A DNA stretch of 64,000 nt from Ferrithrix thermotolerans DSM 19514. Its GTDB lineage: Bacteria > Actinomycetota > Acidimicrobiia > Acidimicrobiales > Ilumatobacteraceae. Below, one piece after another: positions 3,472 to 9,769 of this stretch. Position 1 is the stretch's first letter. Every line of letters starts with the position of its first letter. Under the pieces are notes generated by a model. It ran no database searches, was not told the origin of the DNA, and worked only from the letters and a program-made list of their open reading frames with translations. A program made the position numbers and the translations under genes. The stretch lies in contig CAMASN010000005.1 in the NCBI GenBank assembly GCA_945861025.1, positions 7,239 to 71,238 on the forward strand. The letters are read 5' to 3'.

Positions 3472-3876
3472 CTAACTGGACAACACATCGAAGTTCATTG
3501 ATAGCGCCACGGGAATCTGGGCGGCATCGAAGGTGACGAAACGAATGGGTCGCGGCAGGCGATCGGCGGCTGCGAGATGTAACGCATCGCTGAGGCGCAA
3601 CGGTTGATCTCGCATCAGCCGCGCCGCGCGATCGAGGCACGCTTGATCAACCGGCACGATGGCCAAACGGTCCCATGTGAGGCGCACGTAATCTTCGAGG
3701 TCTTGGCGCAGGATCGGCTCTTCGGTCACGCGGTCGATGAGCGCCAGTGCCTCGACTAACGTGAGCGCACTGGTGCACCATTCGGCATCGTCGTTCATCG
3801 CGGTGGTCACGTGCTCGCGAATGGGTGCGTCGAGATGCAGCGCCACGAGCGCACTGGCATCGAGATACAGAGTCAT
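3472..3876 (-). CDS. vapC: PIN-domain ribonuclease toxin (VapC family)
   Basis: Internal start MTLYLDASALVALH...LRLSDALHLAAADRL, with acidic PIN residues at the expected positions. The ATGA overlaps the upstream antitoxin stop. The 126-aa Arg-rich N-terminal extension in the track ORF was rejected. Confidence 0.8.
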   Translation of the reverse strand: MTLYLDASALVALHLDAPIREHVTTAMNDDAEWCTSALTLVEALALIDRVTEEPILRQDLEDYVRLTWDRLAIVPVDQACLDRAARLMRDQPLRLSDALHLAAADRLPRPIRFVTFDAAQIPVALSMNFDVLSS

Positions 3877-4157
3877 CCTCGAACCTCGCGCAGTAGTCGG
3901 TCGAGGCGAACGCTGCCCCAGACCTGAATGGTGTTCGGCTGCGACGCGGCGCTGCGTCGCTCGGTGCGCCGCGGGGCGATGAGTAAACCCTGCGCGACGA
4001 GTTCGTCGAGTGATCGTTCGGCTCCGTGACTGGTGAGTGGCGCCAACTGCGCAACGGGTCGTCCGCCCACGGTGATTACGGTGCGTTGCCCGCCCTCGGC
4101 TCGACGCACCGCCGCAGCGGCGCTGGCGCGTAGTTCGCGAATGCCTATTCGTTCCAT
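3873..4157 (-). CDS. Phd/YefM-type antitoxin
   Basis: MERIGIRELRASAAAAVRRAEGGQRTVITVGGRPVAQLAPL..., about 94 aa. Its stop overlaps the vapC start (ATGA). A palindrome lies just upstream. Confidence 0.75.
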   Translation of the reverse strand: MERIGIRELRASAAAAVRRAEGGQRTVITVGGRPVAQLAPLTSHGAERSLDELVAQGLLIAPRRTERRSAASQPNTIQVWGSVRLDRLLREVRG

Positions 4158-6148: not shown

Positions 6149-6907
6149 ATGAACGGTTCGTTCCTGTCTGGCGGGCGGAAACTTGCTCGCTATTTGGCCA
6201 TGCCGGCGGGGCGTAACGAGCCGTTGCCAGGCCTCATTTTGTGCCACGGATTTCCCATTGGGCCAATCGATGCGCGTCACTCGGGCGTCACATTTCCTGA
6301 GCTCATCGATCGCGCTGCCAACGAGCTCGGTTGGGCAGCGATGACCTTCACCTTTCGCGGATGCGGCGAGAGCGAAGGCGACTTCTCGCTGCAGTCTTGG
6401 GTCGACGATCTGCGCGCAGCAATCGACCATCTCATCGAGGAGGCCGAGCCGTCGGGCATCTGGTTAGTGGGCACCAACACTGGTGGGTCCATCGCAGTGT
6501 GCGTAGCGGCCGATGATCCTCGAGTGCGCGGTGCGGCGTTGTTGGCGCCACGAGCCGACTTCGACGATTGGGCCGAGCAGCCCCGGCGATTCTTAGAGCA
6601 CGCTCGCGACACCGGTGCCGTTCGCACACCAGGGTTCCCCAAGGATTACGAAGAGTGGAGTCGCGAGTTGCGCCGCTTTCGTCCAGCCGAGGCGGCTCGC
6701 CGTTTGGCACCGCGTCCGCTGCTAGTGATGCACGGTGACGACGATGAAAGCGTGCCAGTGGCCGATGCTCGAGTGCTCGCCGAAGCGCATGGCAGCGCCG
6801 AGTTGCGTCTGGTCGCCGGAGCCGGTCACCGTCTGCGTCACGATCCTCGTGCGGTGGCGATTCTGCTCGGCTGGCTCGACCGCCAACGCCTCACCGACGC
6901 CCTGTAA
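6149..6907 (+). CDS. Alpha/beta hydrolase
   Basis: LILCHGFPIGP, nucleophile-elbow-like GTNTGGS, and HGDDDESVPV...GAGHRL. Confidence 0.8.
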   Translation: MNGSFLSGGRKLARYLAMPAGRNEPLPGLILCHGFPIGPIDARHSGVTFPELIDRAANELGWAAMTFTFRGCGESEGDFSLQSWVDDLRAAIDHLIEEAEPSGIWLVGTNTGGSIAVCVAADDPRVRGAALLAPRADFDDWAEQPRRFLEHARDTGAVRTPGFPKDYEEWSRELRRFRPAEAARRLAPRPLLVMHGDDDESVPVADARVLAEAHGSAELRLVAGAGHRLRHDPRAVAILLGWLDRQRLTDAL

Positions 6908-6942
6908 AGCGTCAGCGCACGGTTGACGTGCGCTGGTGCTTT
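6906..6942 (+). terminator. Stem-loop after the hydrolase gene (copy 1 of a duplicated 43-bp element)
   Basis: AAAGCGTCAGCGCACG-GTTGA-CGTGCGCTGGTGCTTT. Relative to copy 2, the two differences become G.U wobbles in the plus-sense RNA, so a 16-bp stem is kept. Confidence 0.5.
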
Positions 6943-6953
6943 ATGGAGGCGGT

Positions 6954-6979
6954 TGTACATCAACGTACATTGATGTACA
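6954..6979. promoter_or_regulatory. Inverted repeat TGTACATCAA-CGTACA-TTGATGTACA; candidate antitoxin operator
   Basis: Read directly. The 10-bp arms are exact reverse complements. GTACAT occurs three times. It lies immediately upstream of the antitoxin start. Confidence 0.55.
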
Positions 6980-6987
6980 TTTACGAG

Positions 6988-7281
6988 ATGTCGACGAGCG
7001 TAACCATGAGCGAGGCGCGAGCAATCTTGCCCGAGCTGCTTGATCGCGTTCTGAACGGCGACGAGATCACCCTCACTCGGCATGGGGTGCCGGTGGCCGT
7101 AATGGTGCGTCCCGACACATTGCGACTGCGTCGCGCCGATCAGGCGCTGGGCCGAGCCGCAAAGGTGCACGAGATCCTCGAACAGGGACGACGCCGCAAC
7201 CTAAACGCCACGCCCGGCGTGAGTCGTAAACGAGCTGAGACTCTTGTGAATAACGTGCAGTCGTCTCGTTCGCGGGGCTGA
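6988..7281 (+). CDS. Phd/YefM-type antitoxin
   Basis: MSTSVTMSEARAILPELLDRVLNGDEITLTRHGVPVAVMVRPD... The start is at 6988; 7006 is an alternative. The earlier track start at 6928 lies inside the terminator repeat. Confidence 0.75.
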   Translation: MSTSVTMSEARAILPELLDRVLNGDEITLTRHGVPVAVMVRPDTLRLRRADQALGRAAKVHEILEQGRRRNLNATPGVSRKRAETLVNNVQSSRSRG

Positions 7282-7291
7282 GCCCAGCCGC

Positions 7292-7720
7292 ATGGATGCC
7301 TTCGATGCCGATGTGATGATCTACGCAGCAGTGAAGGGGCACGCACTCGGGCGTCGGGTGCGAGCACTCTTCGCCGAGGTATCTGCCGCCGATGCTGATG
7401 CCGTAGCTGGTGTGGGGTCGGTGTTGTTGTTGCCTGAGTTGTTGGCGAAGCCAATGAGGGACAACGTCGGCACTGAGTTGGAAGAACTCGGCGCGCTGCT
7501 TGCTCGGCTCGATCTGCGGCCAGTAGATCAAGCCACGGCCGAACTCGCCACTGCGCTTGGCGCTTCATACGGCTTGCGAGCAGCAGATGCGACGCATCTT
7601 GCGACGGCTGTAATCGCCGGTGCTGACCGGTTCATTACCAATAACTCCAAGGACTTCCCGAAGTCGATTGTCGAGATCGACATCACCTACCCAGCCGACC
7701 TGCCCGACCCGCGCAAATAG
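7292..7720 (+). CDS. vapC: PIN-domain toxin (VapC family)
   Basis: MDAFDADVMIYAA...LLPELL...LRAADATHLATAVIAGADRFITNNSKDF. Starts 10 nt after the antitoxin stop. Confidence 0.8.
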   Translation: MDAFDADVMIYAAVKGHALGRRVRALFAEVSAADADAVAGVGSVLLLPELLAKPMRDNVGTELEELGALLARLDLRPVDQATAELATALGASYGLRAADATHLATAVIAGADRFITNNSKDFPKSIVEIDITYPADLPDPRK

Positions 7721-7761
7721 CGCGCAGTTGGCTGGCTCGTGGATCGTGGCGGGGCCTCCAG

Positions 7762-7798
7762 AAAGCGTCAGCGCACGGTTGACGTGCGCTGACGCTTT
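7762..7798. terminator. Perfect 16-bp stem / 5-nt loop hairpin between convergent genes (copy 2 of the 43-bp element)
   Basis: AAAGCGTCAGCGCACG-GTTGA-CGTGCGCTGACGCTTT. The 3' arm overlaps the stop codon (7797-7799) of the minus-strand GT2 gene. Confidence 0.6.
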
Positions 7799-8789
7799 AT
7801 GAAGCGCGGTAGGTGTCGGTGTCGAAGTTTGGTGACAGTCCGGCGGCGTAAGCGAACAGTGTTGATTCGGCGACGGTGCGTCGACGGGGGAGTTGGCGCC
7901 TAGCCAGCAGAGCCGCAGGCAACGCAACCAGTGCTCGGCCGAATGAGCGGATGCGTTGCACGCGATAGGGGCCGGTGATGCAGCCCTTGGCGTGCACGAT
8001 GAGTCGTGAGCCCCACACGCGCAACGCTGATTGCAGGGTGAAGTTCTTGGCGGCGCACAGCAGCAGATTGCGCTGCACGAGCTCGTATCGGGCAGGTTCG
8101 CCGAGCAACCGGGTAGAGGCTGCATGTTGGTGAAACACCACGGCGTTGGTGGCCGCCACAATGCGCTGGCCAGCGCGCTGGGCACGCAGCACCCAGTCGA
8201 TGTCTTCGTAGTACAACCGGTAGCGCTCGTCGAGCGGGCCGACGCTTGCGCTGTCGAAGGCGTCACAGCGGAACATTGCTGCGCTGAAACATGGTCCCAA
8301 TACATCGGCACCGTTGGATACCTGGTTGTTCCAGCGCTGACCGATGAATGCGTTGAACGCTTCGCCGTTGGGGCGGATAACAACGCCGATGCTGTCGATG
8401 AGGTCGGGCTGATTGGCGAGCATCACGCGAGGTGCTACTGCCACGATTGTCGGGTCGGCCGCAAGCGCAACGGCACACAGAGCGAGTGCGTTGGGGGCAA
8501 CCGTTGCGTCGTCGTTGAGCAACACGATTCCGTCGCCATCTCGCCGCGCAGTGAGGCCGATGTTCACACCACTGGCGAAGCCGTCGTTGCGCGGCGAGGT
8601 GATGAGTTGCACGCGTGAATGTGTGCGCCACTCGGCGCAGGCTGCGCCACGATCTGGGGAAGCGTTGTCGACAAGAACCACGCGGATATCGACGCCCTCA
8701 GAGTCGAGCAGCGACTGCACGCACGAATGAACCGTACTCGCGGTTGAACCGTGCACGACAACTACTGCCGTGACGGTGGGCGATGTCAC
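7797..8789 (-). CDS. Family 2 glycosyltransferase
   Basis: VTAVVVVHGSTAS...VVLVDNASPDRG...LLNDDA... (GT2 fold, DxD-like). The GTG at 8787-8789 forms a GTGA overlap with the galE stop; the track start at 8828 is an alternative. Confidence 0.85.
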   Translation of the reverse strand: MTSPTVTAVVVVHGSTASTVHSCVQSLLDSEGVDIRVVLVDNASPDRGAACAEWRTHSRVQLITSPRNDGFASGVNIGLTARRDGDGIVLLNDDATVAPNALALCAVALAADPTIVAVAPRVMLANQPDLIDSIGVVIRPNGEAFNAFIGQRWNNQVSNGADVLGPCFSAAMFRCDAFDSASVGPLDERYRLYYEDIDWVLRAQRAGQRIVAATNAVVFHQHAASTRLLGEPARYELVQRNLLLCAAKNFTLQSALRVWGSRLIVHAKGCITGPYRVQRIRSFGRALVALPAALLARRQLPRRRTVAESTLFAYAAGLSPNFDTDTYRAS

Positions 8790-9769
8790 GTTGCGTAACC
8801 GTTGGGGTGCGTTGAATGCCAACGCCATGCGGTTTCGATGATTGTGTCGAGGCTGTGCTCGGGAGTCCAGCCGAGTGTGCTGCGCACCAGAGTTGGATCG
8901 CTGTAGGTGCTCACCGGATCGCCGGCACGCCGAGGCGCAAGCGTGGTGGGAACGGTGACCCCGCCGATGCGTTCGGTGGCGTGCACCACATCGAACACGC
9001 TGCTACCAACGCCGGTGCCCACGTTGAGCGCAATGGTGTCGCCGCCATCAGCGAGGTAGGCAAGCGACAGCACATGTGCGTTGGCGAGATCTTCGACGTG
9101 GATGTAATCGCGAATCGCGGTGCCGTCGGGAGTGGGATAGTCGGTGCCGAAGATCTGCACGGGTGGCGCCATGCCCATCGCGGCTTTCATCACCACAGGA
9201 ATCAGGTTGGCGCTGTGGGTCCAGTCTTCGCCGATTGCGTTGTCGAGGCTGGCGCCAGCAGCGTTGAAGTAACGCAGGCTGACCGAGCGTAGGCCCGAGG
9301 TAACGCCGTACCACCGCAGCACCCGTTCGGTCATCGCCTTCGTTTCGGCATAGACGCTTTCGGGATCGATGGGGGCGGCTTCGCTGACGGGCACAACGGC
9401 CGGTGTGCCGTAGACCGAGCACGATGATGAGAACACGAATTGCTTCACGCCAGCGTGGAGCAATGCATCAACGAAGCGCGCAGAACCATCGACGTTGTTG
9501 CGCCAGTACTTCGCTGGGTTCTGCATTGATTCGCCCACGGCTTTGTGCGCAGCGAAGTGCACCACCGAGGTGACCTTGTGGTCGCCGCACACTTGGTTCA
9601 CGAGTTCGGCATCGGCGATGTTGCCGATGACGAGCGGCGTGTCGAGCGCTGCTTGAGCGTGGCCGGTGTCGAGCGAGTCGAGCACCACCACGTTGCGGCC
9701 GAGGCTGCGCAGTTGGCGCACCGTGTGCGAGCCGATGTAACCGGCCCCGCCAGAGACGAGCACTGTCAT
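8786..9769 (-). CDS. galE: UDP-glucose 4-epimerase
   Basis: MTVLVSGGAGYIGSH..., the S...YxxxK SDR pattern (YAETKAM), 327 aa. Confidence 0.9.
   Translation of the reverse strand: MTVLVSGGAGYIGSHTVRQLRSLGRNVVVLDSLDTGHAQAALDTPLVIGNIADAELVNQVCGDHKVTSVVHFAAHKAVGESMQNPAKYWRNNVDGSARFVDALLHAGVKQFVFSSSCSVYGTPAVVPVSEAAPIDPESVYAETKAMTERVLRWYGVTSGLRSVSLRYFNAAGASLDNAIGEDWTHSANLIPVVMKAAMGMAPPVQIFGTDYPTPDGTAIRDYIHVEDLANAHVLSLAYLADGGDTIALNVGTGVGSSVFDVVHATERIGGVTVPTTLAPRRAGDPVSTYSDPTLVRSTLGWTPEHSLDTIIETAWRWHSTHPNGYAT

What the first reader, a model, noticed from the sequence alone, without database searches (positions are those of the whole stretch)
6906..7804. VapBC-type cassette bracketed by a 43-bp direct duplication of a terminator hairpin
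**Seen in the sequence**
- The first copy is AAAGCGTCAGCGCACGGTTGACGTGCGCTGGTGCTTTATGGAG at 6906-6948.
- The second copy is AAAGCGTCAGCGCACGGTTGACGTGCGCTGACGCTTTATGAAG at 7762-7804.
- The two match at 40 of 43 positions and lie 856 bp apart.
- The 813 bp between them contain exactly the antitoxin operator, the Phd/YefM-type antitoxin and the PIN toxin.
- Copy 2 is a perfect 16-bp-stem hairpin and overlaps the stop codon of the convergent GT2 gene.
- Copy 1 starts at the stop codon of the alpha/beta hydrolase gene.
- The two stem differences in copy 1 (A->G, C->T) convert a U-A and a G-C pair into G.U wobbles in the plus-sense RNA. The hairpin is therefore preserved where it would terminate the hydrolase transcript.

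**Inference**
- The ancestral state was probably hydrolase, a single bidirectional terminator, then GT2.
- The TA module would then have been inserted with duplication of the hairpin.
- This gives a footprint of how a TA cassette moves without any visible integrase or transposase.
Basis: partly seen in the sequence, partly recalled or inferred. Interest (0 to 1): 0.6.

Follow-up and report, generated by a model that had tools for sequence, protein, structure and literature searches.

The report
REP-like hairpin repeats bracketing a VapBC module
The two 43-base hairpins around this toxin-antitoxin pair are real, but they belong to a family of about 22 palindromic elements that sit at gene ends in a few sister species of lake Acidimicrobiia. 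Comparison with relatives suggests the hairpins were added around an older toxin-antitoxin module and later allowed its clean deletion in one species, so they are probably not a footprint of its arrival.

Summary
**Observation.** It is confirmed in every detail.

**The repeat.** The 43-mer is the core of a ~51-nt palindromic element, here called H. H has about 22 copies in this 2.9 Mb genome and 18-24 copies in four sister species. It is essentially absent from the rest of the genus.
- Nearly all copies lie just 3' of genes, and several supply the TAA stop codon.
- No RAYT transposase, no parent IS and no Rfam family was found.

**The predicted empty site.** One sister genome (G022) has hydrolase, a single hairpin, then GT2. 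Two results argue against reading this as the ancestral state.
- G022 is nested among four module-bearing species in one flank tree, so its empty site is best read as a pop-out deletion between the two direct repeats.
- Two hairpin-free outgroup species carry the orthologous VapBC between the same two genes. The module is therefore probably older at this site than the hairpins.

**Origin and history of the copies.**
- Copy 1 carries the last codons of GT2, so it was copied from copy 2 plus its flank.
- The two copies exchange sequence with each other.
- The whole hairpin-module-hairpin unit has been swapped between species by homologous recombination.

**Open question.** At two other loci, hairpin pairs bracket accessory genes where the basal species has a single hairpin. 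A hairpin-linked gene-gain mechanism therefore remains possible but unproven.

The parts
6149..6907 (+). Alpha/beta-hydrolase gene. Its TAA stop (6905-6907) lies inside the outer stem of hairpin copy 1.
   Evidence: ORF. Pfam Hydrolase_4, Abhydrolase_6 and Abhydrolase_1. Orthologs in 33 of 41 relatives.
6899..6949 (.). H element copy 1 (c1), a 51-nt palindromic element. It is followed by CGGT (6950-6953), a remnant of the copied GT2 3' end.
6954..6979 (.). TGTACA-based palindrome upstream of the antitoxin, presumed to be the VapB operator.
   Evidence: Inverted repeat I13. TGTACA-type repeats occupy the same position in G018, G015, G021 and G017.
6988..7281 (+). Phd/YefM-type antitoxin (VapB).
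   Evidence: PF02604, E 3.3e-11. dN/dS 0.13 against G018.
7292..7720 (+). PIN-domain toxin (VapC).
   Evidence: PF01850, E 9.8e-9. dN/dS 0.09 against G018. Orthologs in 8 of 23 genus genomes.
7755..7805 (.). H element copy 2 (c2), a perfect 16-bp stem with a 5-nt loop.
7797..8828 (-). Family-2 glycosyltransferase (GT2), convergent with vapC. Its TAA stop (7797-7799) lies in the 3' arm of copy 2.
   Evidence: ORF. PF00535.

Best explanation
**What the element is**
- The two 43-mers are copies of a lineage-specific, REP-like palindromic element, here called H.
- Its consensus is about CCTCCR-TAAAGCGTSAGCGCACG-N5-CGTGCGCTSACGCTTTA-YGGAGG.
- It lies at the 3' ends of genes and most likely acts as a two-way transcript-end hairpin, either a terminator or a 3'-end stabiliser. 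This function is inferred, not shown.

**History at this locus**
- VapBC was already resident between the hydrolase and GT2.
- In the ancestor of five sister species an H copy sat at the GT2 stop (c2). A second copy (c1), made from c2 plus about 11 nt of GT2's 3' end, came to lie at the hydrolase stop. This insulated the module on both sides. The copying step is shown by sequence, but its enzymology is unknown.
- The two ~50-nt direct repeats have since exchanged sequence by gene conversion.
- The whole H-VapBC-H unit was swapped between species by homologous recombination.
- In one species (G022) the module was lost by recombination between the repeats, leaving one hairpin that supplies both stop codons.
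For: **The family**
- About 22 copies on 15 contigs of this genome.
- 18-24 copies in G004, G015, G018 and G022, a variant form in G016 (11) and G003 (5), and 0-2 elsewhere in the genus.
- At least 19 of 22 copies face a gene 3' end. Several gene ends use the hairpin's TAA as stop codon.
- A 22-bp stem is paired in 85% of cells, with 31 double-sided changes; 0 of 500 shuffles reached that.
- 14 of 18 G004 sites are orthologous to G000 sites, so the family is old and positionally stable.
- H pairs also bracket a resident, genus-wide gene: the luciferase-like monooxygenase (LLM) between C15:4425 and C15:6525.

**The module predates the hairpins**
- Hairpin-free G021 and G017 have the orthologous module at the same site.
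- The module/flank divergence ratio is about 2 both within the clade and against G021 (my arithmetic).

**c1 was copied from c2**
- The tail GAAGCG(C/T)GGT is present in all lineages, including a contig closest to the basal species G004.

**The arrangement is old**
- Synonymous divergence between G000 and G018 is 0.28-0.30 for the flanks and 0.44-0.45 for vapB and vapC.

**Gene conversion between the copies**
- The copies within a genome share lineage-specific variants: the loop G and CTCGCGC.
- The G/C variant at stem position 6 sits in c2 in G018 but in c1 in contig SESD01001596.

**Deletion in G022**
- The right-flank tree is (G004,(G000,(G018,(G015,G022)))).
- The computed pop-out product of G015 aligns to G022 over 900 nt without a gap.
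- No vapC is found anywhere in G022.

**Exchange between species**
- G015 and G018 differ by about 1% from window position ~6839 to ~7815 (my count), inside flanks that differ by 6-10%.
Against: - The order 'module first, hairpins later' rests on parsimony over one genome per species (all MAGs) and on trees from 1.4-2.2 kb of flanking DNA.
- vapBC synonymous divergence between G000 and G018 is about 1.5 times that of the flanks, roughly 2 standard errors by my estimate. That could instead mean separate acquisitions.
- At two other loci the basal species G004 has a single H where the crown species have H-cargo-H. One of those cargos, a GST-like gene, is absent from 20 of 23 genus genomes. There the polarity favours cargo gain next to a pre-existing H.
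- No mechanism is known that copies a hairpin plus 11 nt of flank to a site 850 bp away.
- Terminator activity is untested. The element lacks the U-tract the scanning tool requires.
Confidence: 0.6

Rival explanations
1. The ancestral site was hydrolase-single hairpin-GT2. The VapBC module was then inserted by staggered breaks on either side of the hairpin, for example by cruciform cleavage with end-joining capture. Fill-in duplicated the hairpin plus about 11 nt of GT2.
For: - The duplicated unit includes locus-specific GT2 codons, and both flanking genes keep intact 3' ends. A long target duplication predicts exactly this.
- A single-hairpin site exists in G022.
- Loci 2 and 3 show single H in basal G004 against H-cargo-H in the crown species.
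Against: - The nearest outgroups already carry the module at this site without hairpins. The model therefore needs loss, hairpin arrival, and then non-homologous re-insertion at the same spot.
- G022 is nested among filled genomes.
- Orthologous modules at other loci have no flanking duplication.
- In the G003 pairs, identity stops exactly at the element ends, with no flank duplication.
- H pairs also bracket the resident LLM gene.
Confidence: 0.15
2. H elements act as attachment sites for cassette-like exchange. A circle or fragment carrying cargo plus one H recombines with a chromosomal H to give H-cargo-H, and the reverse reaction excises it. The VapBC, AbiEi-like and GST-like genes would be such cassettes. 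The enzyme would be RecA or an unlinked recombinase.
For: - Three loci show H-cargo-H in some species and single H without cargo in a sister species.
- H copies cluster. Four pairs lie within 1.3 kb where about 0.2 are expected (my arithmetic on the coordinates).
- At locus 2 the left H has a complete consensus outer arm that the single H of G004 lacks, as if the incoming DNA brought its own H.
- The H-VapBC-H unit moved between G015 and G018 as one tract.
Against: - No cargo was found at two different H sites.
- All close VapBC copies are at one locus.
- The G015/G018 exchange tract ends in the flanking genes, not in the hairpins.
- The GST-like cargo must have come from outside the H-bearing clade, so it could not have brought an H with it.
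- The cobT/cobS-like presence/absence lies next to a single H only.
- 14 of 18 H sites are positionally stable.
Confidence: 0.12
3. The two hairpins are independent insertions of a mobile palindromic element at two neighbouring gene ends. Their similarity, including the short tail, comes from later gene conversion and chance.
For: - The element is a discrete unit whose copies share nothing beyond their ends in G003 and at locus 2.
- Copy 2 is as close to C15:7565 (42/43) as to copy 1 (40/43) in this genome.
- Gene conversion between the two copies is evident.
Against: - The tail CGCGGT matches conserved GT2 coding sequence in every lineage.
- The G015:C311 pair also shares about 33 nt beyond the hairpin.
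- With 22 copies among roughly 2,800 genes, neighbouring hits by chance are rare.
Confidence: 0.08

Closest known systems
REP / BIME / REPIN elements of Proteobacteria
   Same: Short G+C-rich palindromes dispersed in extragenic DNA, mostly just 3' of genes. The stem is maintained by paired changes. They are associated with genome plasticity and with recombination between copies. (REP and Y1-transposase biology: PMC3333891, listed but not read here; review PMC3184786.)
   Different: - No RAYT (Y1 transposase) in the genome.
- No GTAG-type head.
- Mostly single units rather than doublets.
- Only about 20 copies.
- Longer stem (about 22 bp).
- The outer stem, TAAAGCG...CGCTTTA, supplies stop codons on both strands.
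- The host is an uncultured freshwater actinobacterial lineage.
E. coli folA-apaH intergenic region with the ccdO157 toxin-antitoxin system
   Same: A chromosomal toxin-antitoxin module that is present, decayed or absent between the same two housekeeping genes in different strains. REP sequences are present in that region in about half of isolates and have been proposed to contribute to its plasticity (review PMC3184786).
   Different: Here the repeats bracket the module as direct repeats and the deletion product can be reconstructed exactly. The primary paper (Mine et al. 2009) was not held in the library, so finer comparison was not possible.
[quoted passage not shown]
   Same: A dispersed repeat family whose predicted RNA structure resembles a terminator (PMC3184786).
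   Different: SPRITE is about 105 nt and, per that review, carries a Rho-independent termination motif. H is a bare symmetric hairpin without the U-tract the scanning tool requires and reads the same in both directions.
Integron attC sites and gene cassettes
   Same: Hairpin-forming sites that bound promoter-containing toxin-antitoxin cassettes. Excision and integration at hairpins would give H-cargo-H against single H. (The attC features are from my own knowledge.)
   Different: - No intI or any recombinase nearby.
- No cassette array.
- No RYYYAAC/GTTRRRY core sites.
- H sites are scattered at the ends of ordinary genes.
Minimal mobile elements of Neisseria (accessory genes exchanged between conserved flanking genes by homologous recombination)
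   Same: An accessory gene occupies the same intergenic slot in a patchy set of species and is exchanged through flanking homology, as in the G015/G018 tract. (The concept is from my own knowledge.)
   Different: Here the slot is additionally bounded by a direct repeat that permits precise loss.

Membership tests
REP/REPIN-RAYT system | Many copies of a short palindrome in extragenic DNA | tested here: met
   About 22 copies, nearly all intergenic at gene 3' ends.
REP/REPIN-RAYT system | A RAYT (Y1/HUH transposase, PF01797) gene in the genome, flanked by REPs | tested here: not met
   No PF01797 match in the 95.6%-complete genome, while the same search hit 6 of 14 control genomes.
REP/REPIN-RAYT system | Conserved 5' tetranucleotide (GTAG-like) head and doublet (REPIN/BIME) organisation | tested here: not met
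   The consensus begins CCTCCRTAAAGCG. Copies are single units apart from one 104-bp direct doublet on C33.
Intrinsic (Rho-independent) terminator | Stable G+C-rich stem-loop directly after a gene | tested here: met
   -31 to -41 kcal/mol on both strands, z-scores -4.9 to -7.5. Position relative to gene ends.
Intrinsic (Rho-independent) terminator | U-rich tract following the stem | tested here: not met
   Not called by the scan, which requires at least 5 T in 8 bases. Only UUUA is present, and it is part of the outer stem.
Intrinsic (Rho-independent) terminator | Transcripts end at the element | not testable with these tools
Integron attC / gene cassette | Integron integrase and attI nearby; cassettes in an array | tested here: not met
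   The neighbours are acyl-CoA dehydrogenase, hydrolase, GT2 and sugar-nucleotide enzymes, with no recombinase within about 7 kb. H sites lie on 15 contigs.
Integron attC / gene cassette | R''/R' core sites RYYYAAC ... GTTRRRY and extrahelical bases | tested here: not met
   The consensus has neither. Stems are perfect or nearly perfect.
MITE (miniature inverted-repeat transposable element) | Terminal inverted repeats plus a direct target-site duplication, and a parent IS with the same ends | tested here: not met
   The flanks covary as inverted complements (CATA..TATG, CAGC..GCTG), not as direct repeats. No isolated half-sites occur in the genome.
Transposon-type target-site duplication | A short direct repeat of target DNA (typically 2-14 bp) flanking an element with defined ends | tested here: inconclusive
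   The repeat is 50-53 bp and includes 6-11 nt of locus-specific GT2 sequence. However, the insert has no terminal repeats, and orthologs at other loci carry no duplication.
Type II toxin-antitoxin, VapBC type with Phd/YefM antitoxin | Antitoxin gene followed closely by a PIN toxin gene, with a palindrome upstream | tested here: met
   PF02604 then PF01850 with a 10-nt gap, and the palindrome at 6954-6979.
Type II toxin-antitoxin, VapBC type with Phd/YefM antitoxin | Genes maintained by selection | tested here: met
   dN/dS 0.09-0.13 against G018.
Type II toxin-antitoxin, VapBC type with Phd/YefM antitoxin | Toxicity that is neutralised by the antitoxin | not testable with these tools
   This needs expression in a laboratory strain.

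The most novel reading that the evidence does not exclude
H elements are entry and exit points for accessory genes. A gene lands at a single hairpin and ends up with a hairpin on each side, as seen for the GST-like gene next to tRNA-Pro, the AbiEi-like gene and possibly VapBC. It can leave again by recombination between the two hairpins. No recombinase is linked to the sites. This would be a hairpin-based cassette system scattered over a chromosome.
Probability: 0.15. Interest if true: 0.75.

Novelty: new member of a known kind. Interest (0 to 1): 0.35.

Why it matters
**What the case shows**
- A tempting 'insertion footprint' (a direct repeat around a toxin-antitoxin module plus an empty site in a relative) can mislead. 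Here the repeat is more likely younger than the module, and the empty site is more likely a loss.
- This is a clean natural example of a chromosomal toxin-antitoxin module being removed precisely through short flanking repeats.
- It also shows a ~1 kb module being passed between species by homologous recombination.

**What the element adds**
- The H family is an undescribed REP-like element in abundant, uncultured lake Acidimicrobiia.
- It rewrites the C-termini and stop codons of neighbouring genes.
- It clusters around accessory genes.

If the hairpins turn out to promote gene gain as well as loss, that would be a new, recombinase-free route of gene-cassette turnover.

Tried and rejected
- **RAYT transposase as mobiliser.** PF01797 is absent from the genome.
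- **Parent IS or uptake-sequence explanation.** No half-sites occur outside full hairpins.
- **Known RNA family.** Only two sub-threshold chance hits in Rfam.
- **Canonical U-tract terminator.** Not called by the scan.
- **Flanking duplications around VapBC orthologs at other loci** (G008, G007) or at the hairpin-free orthologous site (G017, G021). None found.
- **The same module at other hairpin sites** in 23 genus genomes, the GTDB species set and JGI metagenomes. All copies above 90% identity are at the hydrolase-GT2 locus, and more distant homologs have no H.
- **Flank duplication in the G003 pairs.** Identity stops at the element ends.
- **The G.U wobble argument for copy 1.** It is true, but the chance probability is about 0.25, so I dropped it as evidence.
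- **Loop identity as a marker of sister copies.** Orthologous loops differ between species at locus 3, so loops are unreliable.
- **Primary paper on ccdO157 decay.** Not held in the library.
- **Literature on palindromic repeats in Acidimicrobiia.** The search found none.
Full report
**1. The observation**

They match at 40 of 43 positions and start 856 bp apart. A search for the 37-nt core with up to three mismatches finds only these two sites in the window and none in 100 shuffles.

Between them lie three features:
- a TGTACA-based palindrome (6954-6979);
- a Phd/YefM antitoxin (6988-7281, PF02604);
- a PIN toxin (7292-7720, PF01850).

The hydrolase stop codon (TAA, 6905-6907) and the GT2 stop codon (TAA, 7797-7799, minus strand) both lie inside the outer stems of the hairpins.

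Both copies fold very stably on either strand, at -31.7 to -40.6 kcal/mol. Copy 1 is better in the plus sense because its two changes are G.U wobbles there. Two transitions falling that way has a chance probability of about one in four, so I give that point no weight.

**2. The hairpin is a dispersed element**

A search of the window's own genome (2.89 Mb, 104 contigs, 61% G+C, 95.6% complete) finds the sequence on many contigs. A pattern search gives about 22 true members. I call the element H.

Aligned, the copies give a 51-nt consensus, nCnCCATAAAGCGTCAGCGCACG-N5-CGTGCGCTGACGCTTTACGGnGn.
- A 22-pair stem is paired in 85% of cells.
- There are 31 cells with changes on both sides, for example C-G in 11 copies and G-C in 8 at one position. 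None of 500 shuffles reached that number.
- Such paired changes can come from selection on the hairpin. They can also come from template switching within a palindrome, so they do not by themselves prove an RNA function.

With a simple codon-usage gene caller I placed each copy relative to its neighbours.
- At least 19 of 22 copies face the 3' end of a gene, often of two convergent genes.
- Several gene ends use the hairpin's own TAA as their stop codon.

The scan for U-tract terminators does not call these hairpins. No Rfam family matches. The genome has no Y1/RAYT transposase. No isolated half-sites exist that could mark a parent insertion sequence or an uptake sequence.

A second Phd/YefM-PIN pair in the same window (3472-4157, minus strand) has no H next to it, and no recombinase lies within about 7 kb of the finding.

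**3. Distribution of the family**

Record titles of close relatives are lake MAGs labelled Actinomycetota or Acidimicrobiia.

Among 40 relatives the family is confined to G000, G004, G015, G018 and G022, with 18-24 copies each. A variant form occurs in G016 (11 copies) and G003 (5 copies). Other genus members have 0-2 matches.

Fourteen of 18 H sites in G004 are orthologous to H sites in G000. The family is therefore old within this five-species clade and mostly stays put.

**4. The hydrolase-GT2 junction in relatives**

| Genomes | State of the junction |
|---|---|
| G000, G018, G015 | H-VapBC-H |
| G004, and a metagenome contig closest to G004 | c1, the module, and a c2 whose inner arm has been deleted |
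| G022 | Hydrolase-TAA, single H, GT2; no vapC anywhere in the genome |
| G021, G017 (more distant) | Orthologous module between the same two genes, no hairpin on either side |
| Eight others | Neither module nor, with one exception (G016), a hairpin |
| G008, G007 | Orthologous module at a different locus, no flanking repeats |

**5. Polarity**

Trees from the flanks agree on the following.
- The five species form one clade.
- G004 is basal in the clade in the hyd2 flank (97/99 support) and in the GT2/galE flank (96/97).
- G021 lies outside the clade.

In the right flank, G022 is sister to G015 (98/98), inside G018, G000 and G004. All four other members carry the module, so one loss in G022 is far more parsimonious than several gains.

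I joined the two flanks of G015 across its 50-nt exact repeat. The product aligns with G022 over 900 nt without a gap at 94.4% identity, which is the background divergence. At the junction it differs by one base.

The module itself is under purifying selection, with dN/dS 0.09-0.13. By my arithmetic, it diverges about twice as fast as its flanks:
- within the clade, about 12% against 5-7% between G000 and G018;
- against G021, about 34% against 17-25%.

That constant ratio fits vertical descent. Together with the hairpin-free modules in G021 and G017, it makes the module probably older at this site than the hairpins.

**6. Origin and behaviour of the pair**

In every lineage, including the contig closest to G004, copy 1 is followed by GAAGCG(C/T)GGT before the operator begins. 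In copy 2 this sequence is the complement of GT2's last codons, Y-R-A-S-stop. The Y-R-A part is conserved across the genus, hairpin-free species included. Copy 1 was therefore made from copy 2 plus about 11 nt of its flank. How this happened is unknown.

The pair predates the split of the five species. Synonymous divergence between G000 and G018 is 0.28-0.30 in the flanks. Yet copies within a genome resemble each other more than their orthologs do.
- G018, G015 and G022 share a loop G and the arm CTCGCGC in all copies, whereas G000 has neither.
- The G/C variant at stem position 6 lies in c2 in G018 but in c1 in contig SESD01001596.

This is the signature of gene conversion between the two copies.

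Separately, G015 and G018 differ at only about 1% from window position ~6839 to ~7815 (my count), which spans c1, the module, c2 and 20-70 nt of each flank. The adjoining genes differ at 6-10%. The whole unit was therefore recently exchanged between species by homologous recombination.

**7. Other hairpin pairs**

H copies cluster. Four pairs lie within 1.3 kb of each other in G000, where about 0.2 are expected from 22 copies in 2.9 Mb (my arithmetic on the coordinates).

*Locus 2 (G000 C15).* Here the order is a luciferase-like monooxygenase (LLM), H, an AbiEi_4/REase-like gene, H, and a second hydrolase.
- The cargo with both hairpins is present in G000, G018 and G022, and partly visible in G015.
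- G004 has one H and no cargo.
- G021 and G017 have neither.
- G016 and G003 have a decayed cargo.

*Locus 3 (G000 C1).* Here the order is a methyltransferase, H, a GST-like gene, H, and tRNA-Pro.
- The GST-like gene is found in only 3 of 23 genus genomes.
- G004 has methyltransferase, single H, then tRNA-Pro.

Several results argue against a general rule.
- H pairs also bracket the resident LLM gene.
- A 2.3-kb cobT/cobS-like presence/absence lies next to a single H only.
- In the G003 pairs, identity stops at the element ends.
- The junction at locus 2 can be read either way.

I therefore keep hairpin-linked gain as a minority possibility.

**8. Verdict**

The duplication and the single-hairpin site are real. 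However, the hairpin is a REP-like family member, the module is most likely the older resident, and the 'empty site' is most likely its deletion scar.

Caveats:
- All genomes are MAGs, with one per species.
- The trees rest on short flanks.
- Terminator function is inferred from position and stability only.

The closest documented parallel that I could read about is the variable folA-apaH region of E. coli, which holds ccdO157 and REP sequences (PMC3184786).

Noticed in passing
G000 C15:6400-6560 and 7560-7620; loci L054-L058: H elements rewrite the C-termini of neighbouring proteins. The monooxygenase (LLM) ends PLQR* in G022 and G018, PLQREPSSVKHQRTSTVR* in G000 (it reads through the hairpin), and PLQRTPTVR* in G004. 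The adjacent hydrolase ends ALGL* or ALGLSRPARPAFGP*.
   Followed up: partly
   Followed up: partly
G000 C33:10140-10290: Two H copies lie 104 bp apart in direct orientation, separated and followed by G-rich tandem repeats (GGCGAGGGGGCGGTGA).
   Followed up: no
L047 (G015) versus L048 (G018), window-equivalent ~6839-7815: A sharply bounded ~1 kb tract of about 1% divergence covers c1, the module and c2, inside flanks at 6-10% divergence. The module allele of basal G004 is also closer to G015/G018 (96%) than its flank is (90%).
   Followed up: yes
G000 C14:18590-20900: The cobT- and cobS-like genes (2.3 kb) lie next to a single H in G000 and are absent from the orthologous site in G004, which keeps the H.
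   Followed up: partly
L041 (G015 C311:6336-7790): A pair of H copies brackets a multicopper-oxidase-like gene. The direct repeat runs about 33 nt beyond the hairpin and covers the last four codons and the stop of two unrelated genes (TPTH* and TPNG*).
   Followed up: partly
L039 and L040 (G003 C49 and C75): Four of the five variant H copies in G003 form two pairs. One brackets an ECF sigma/anti-sigma pair (1.8 kb). The other brackets a 1157-aa surface protein (3.6 kb), with the two copies 100% identical over 47 nt.
   Followed up: partly
L014/L051 (G021), start of vapB: The VapB ortholog of G021 carries four tandem 12-nt repeats (GTCACTGAGCAC-like) near its 5' end.
   Followed up: no
L013 (G016) 2860-2960: The GT2 ortholog of G016 contains a triple tandem duplication of about 33 nt inside the coding region.
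   Followed up: no
L053 (G007 C404:5893-6306): The VapC ortholog of G007, which lies at a different locus, has an in-frame TGA.
   Followed up: no
L085, L086 (genome contigs): VapC homologs at 66-76% identity occur in MAGs labelled Chloroflexia and Jatrophihabitans, so the module family crosses phylum-level labels.
   Followed up: no
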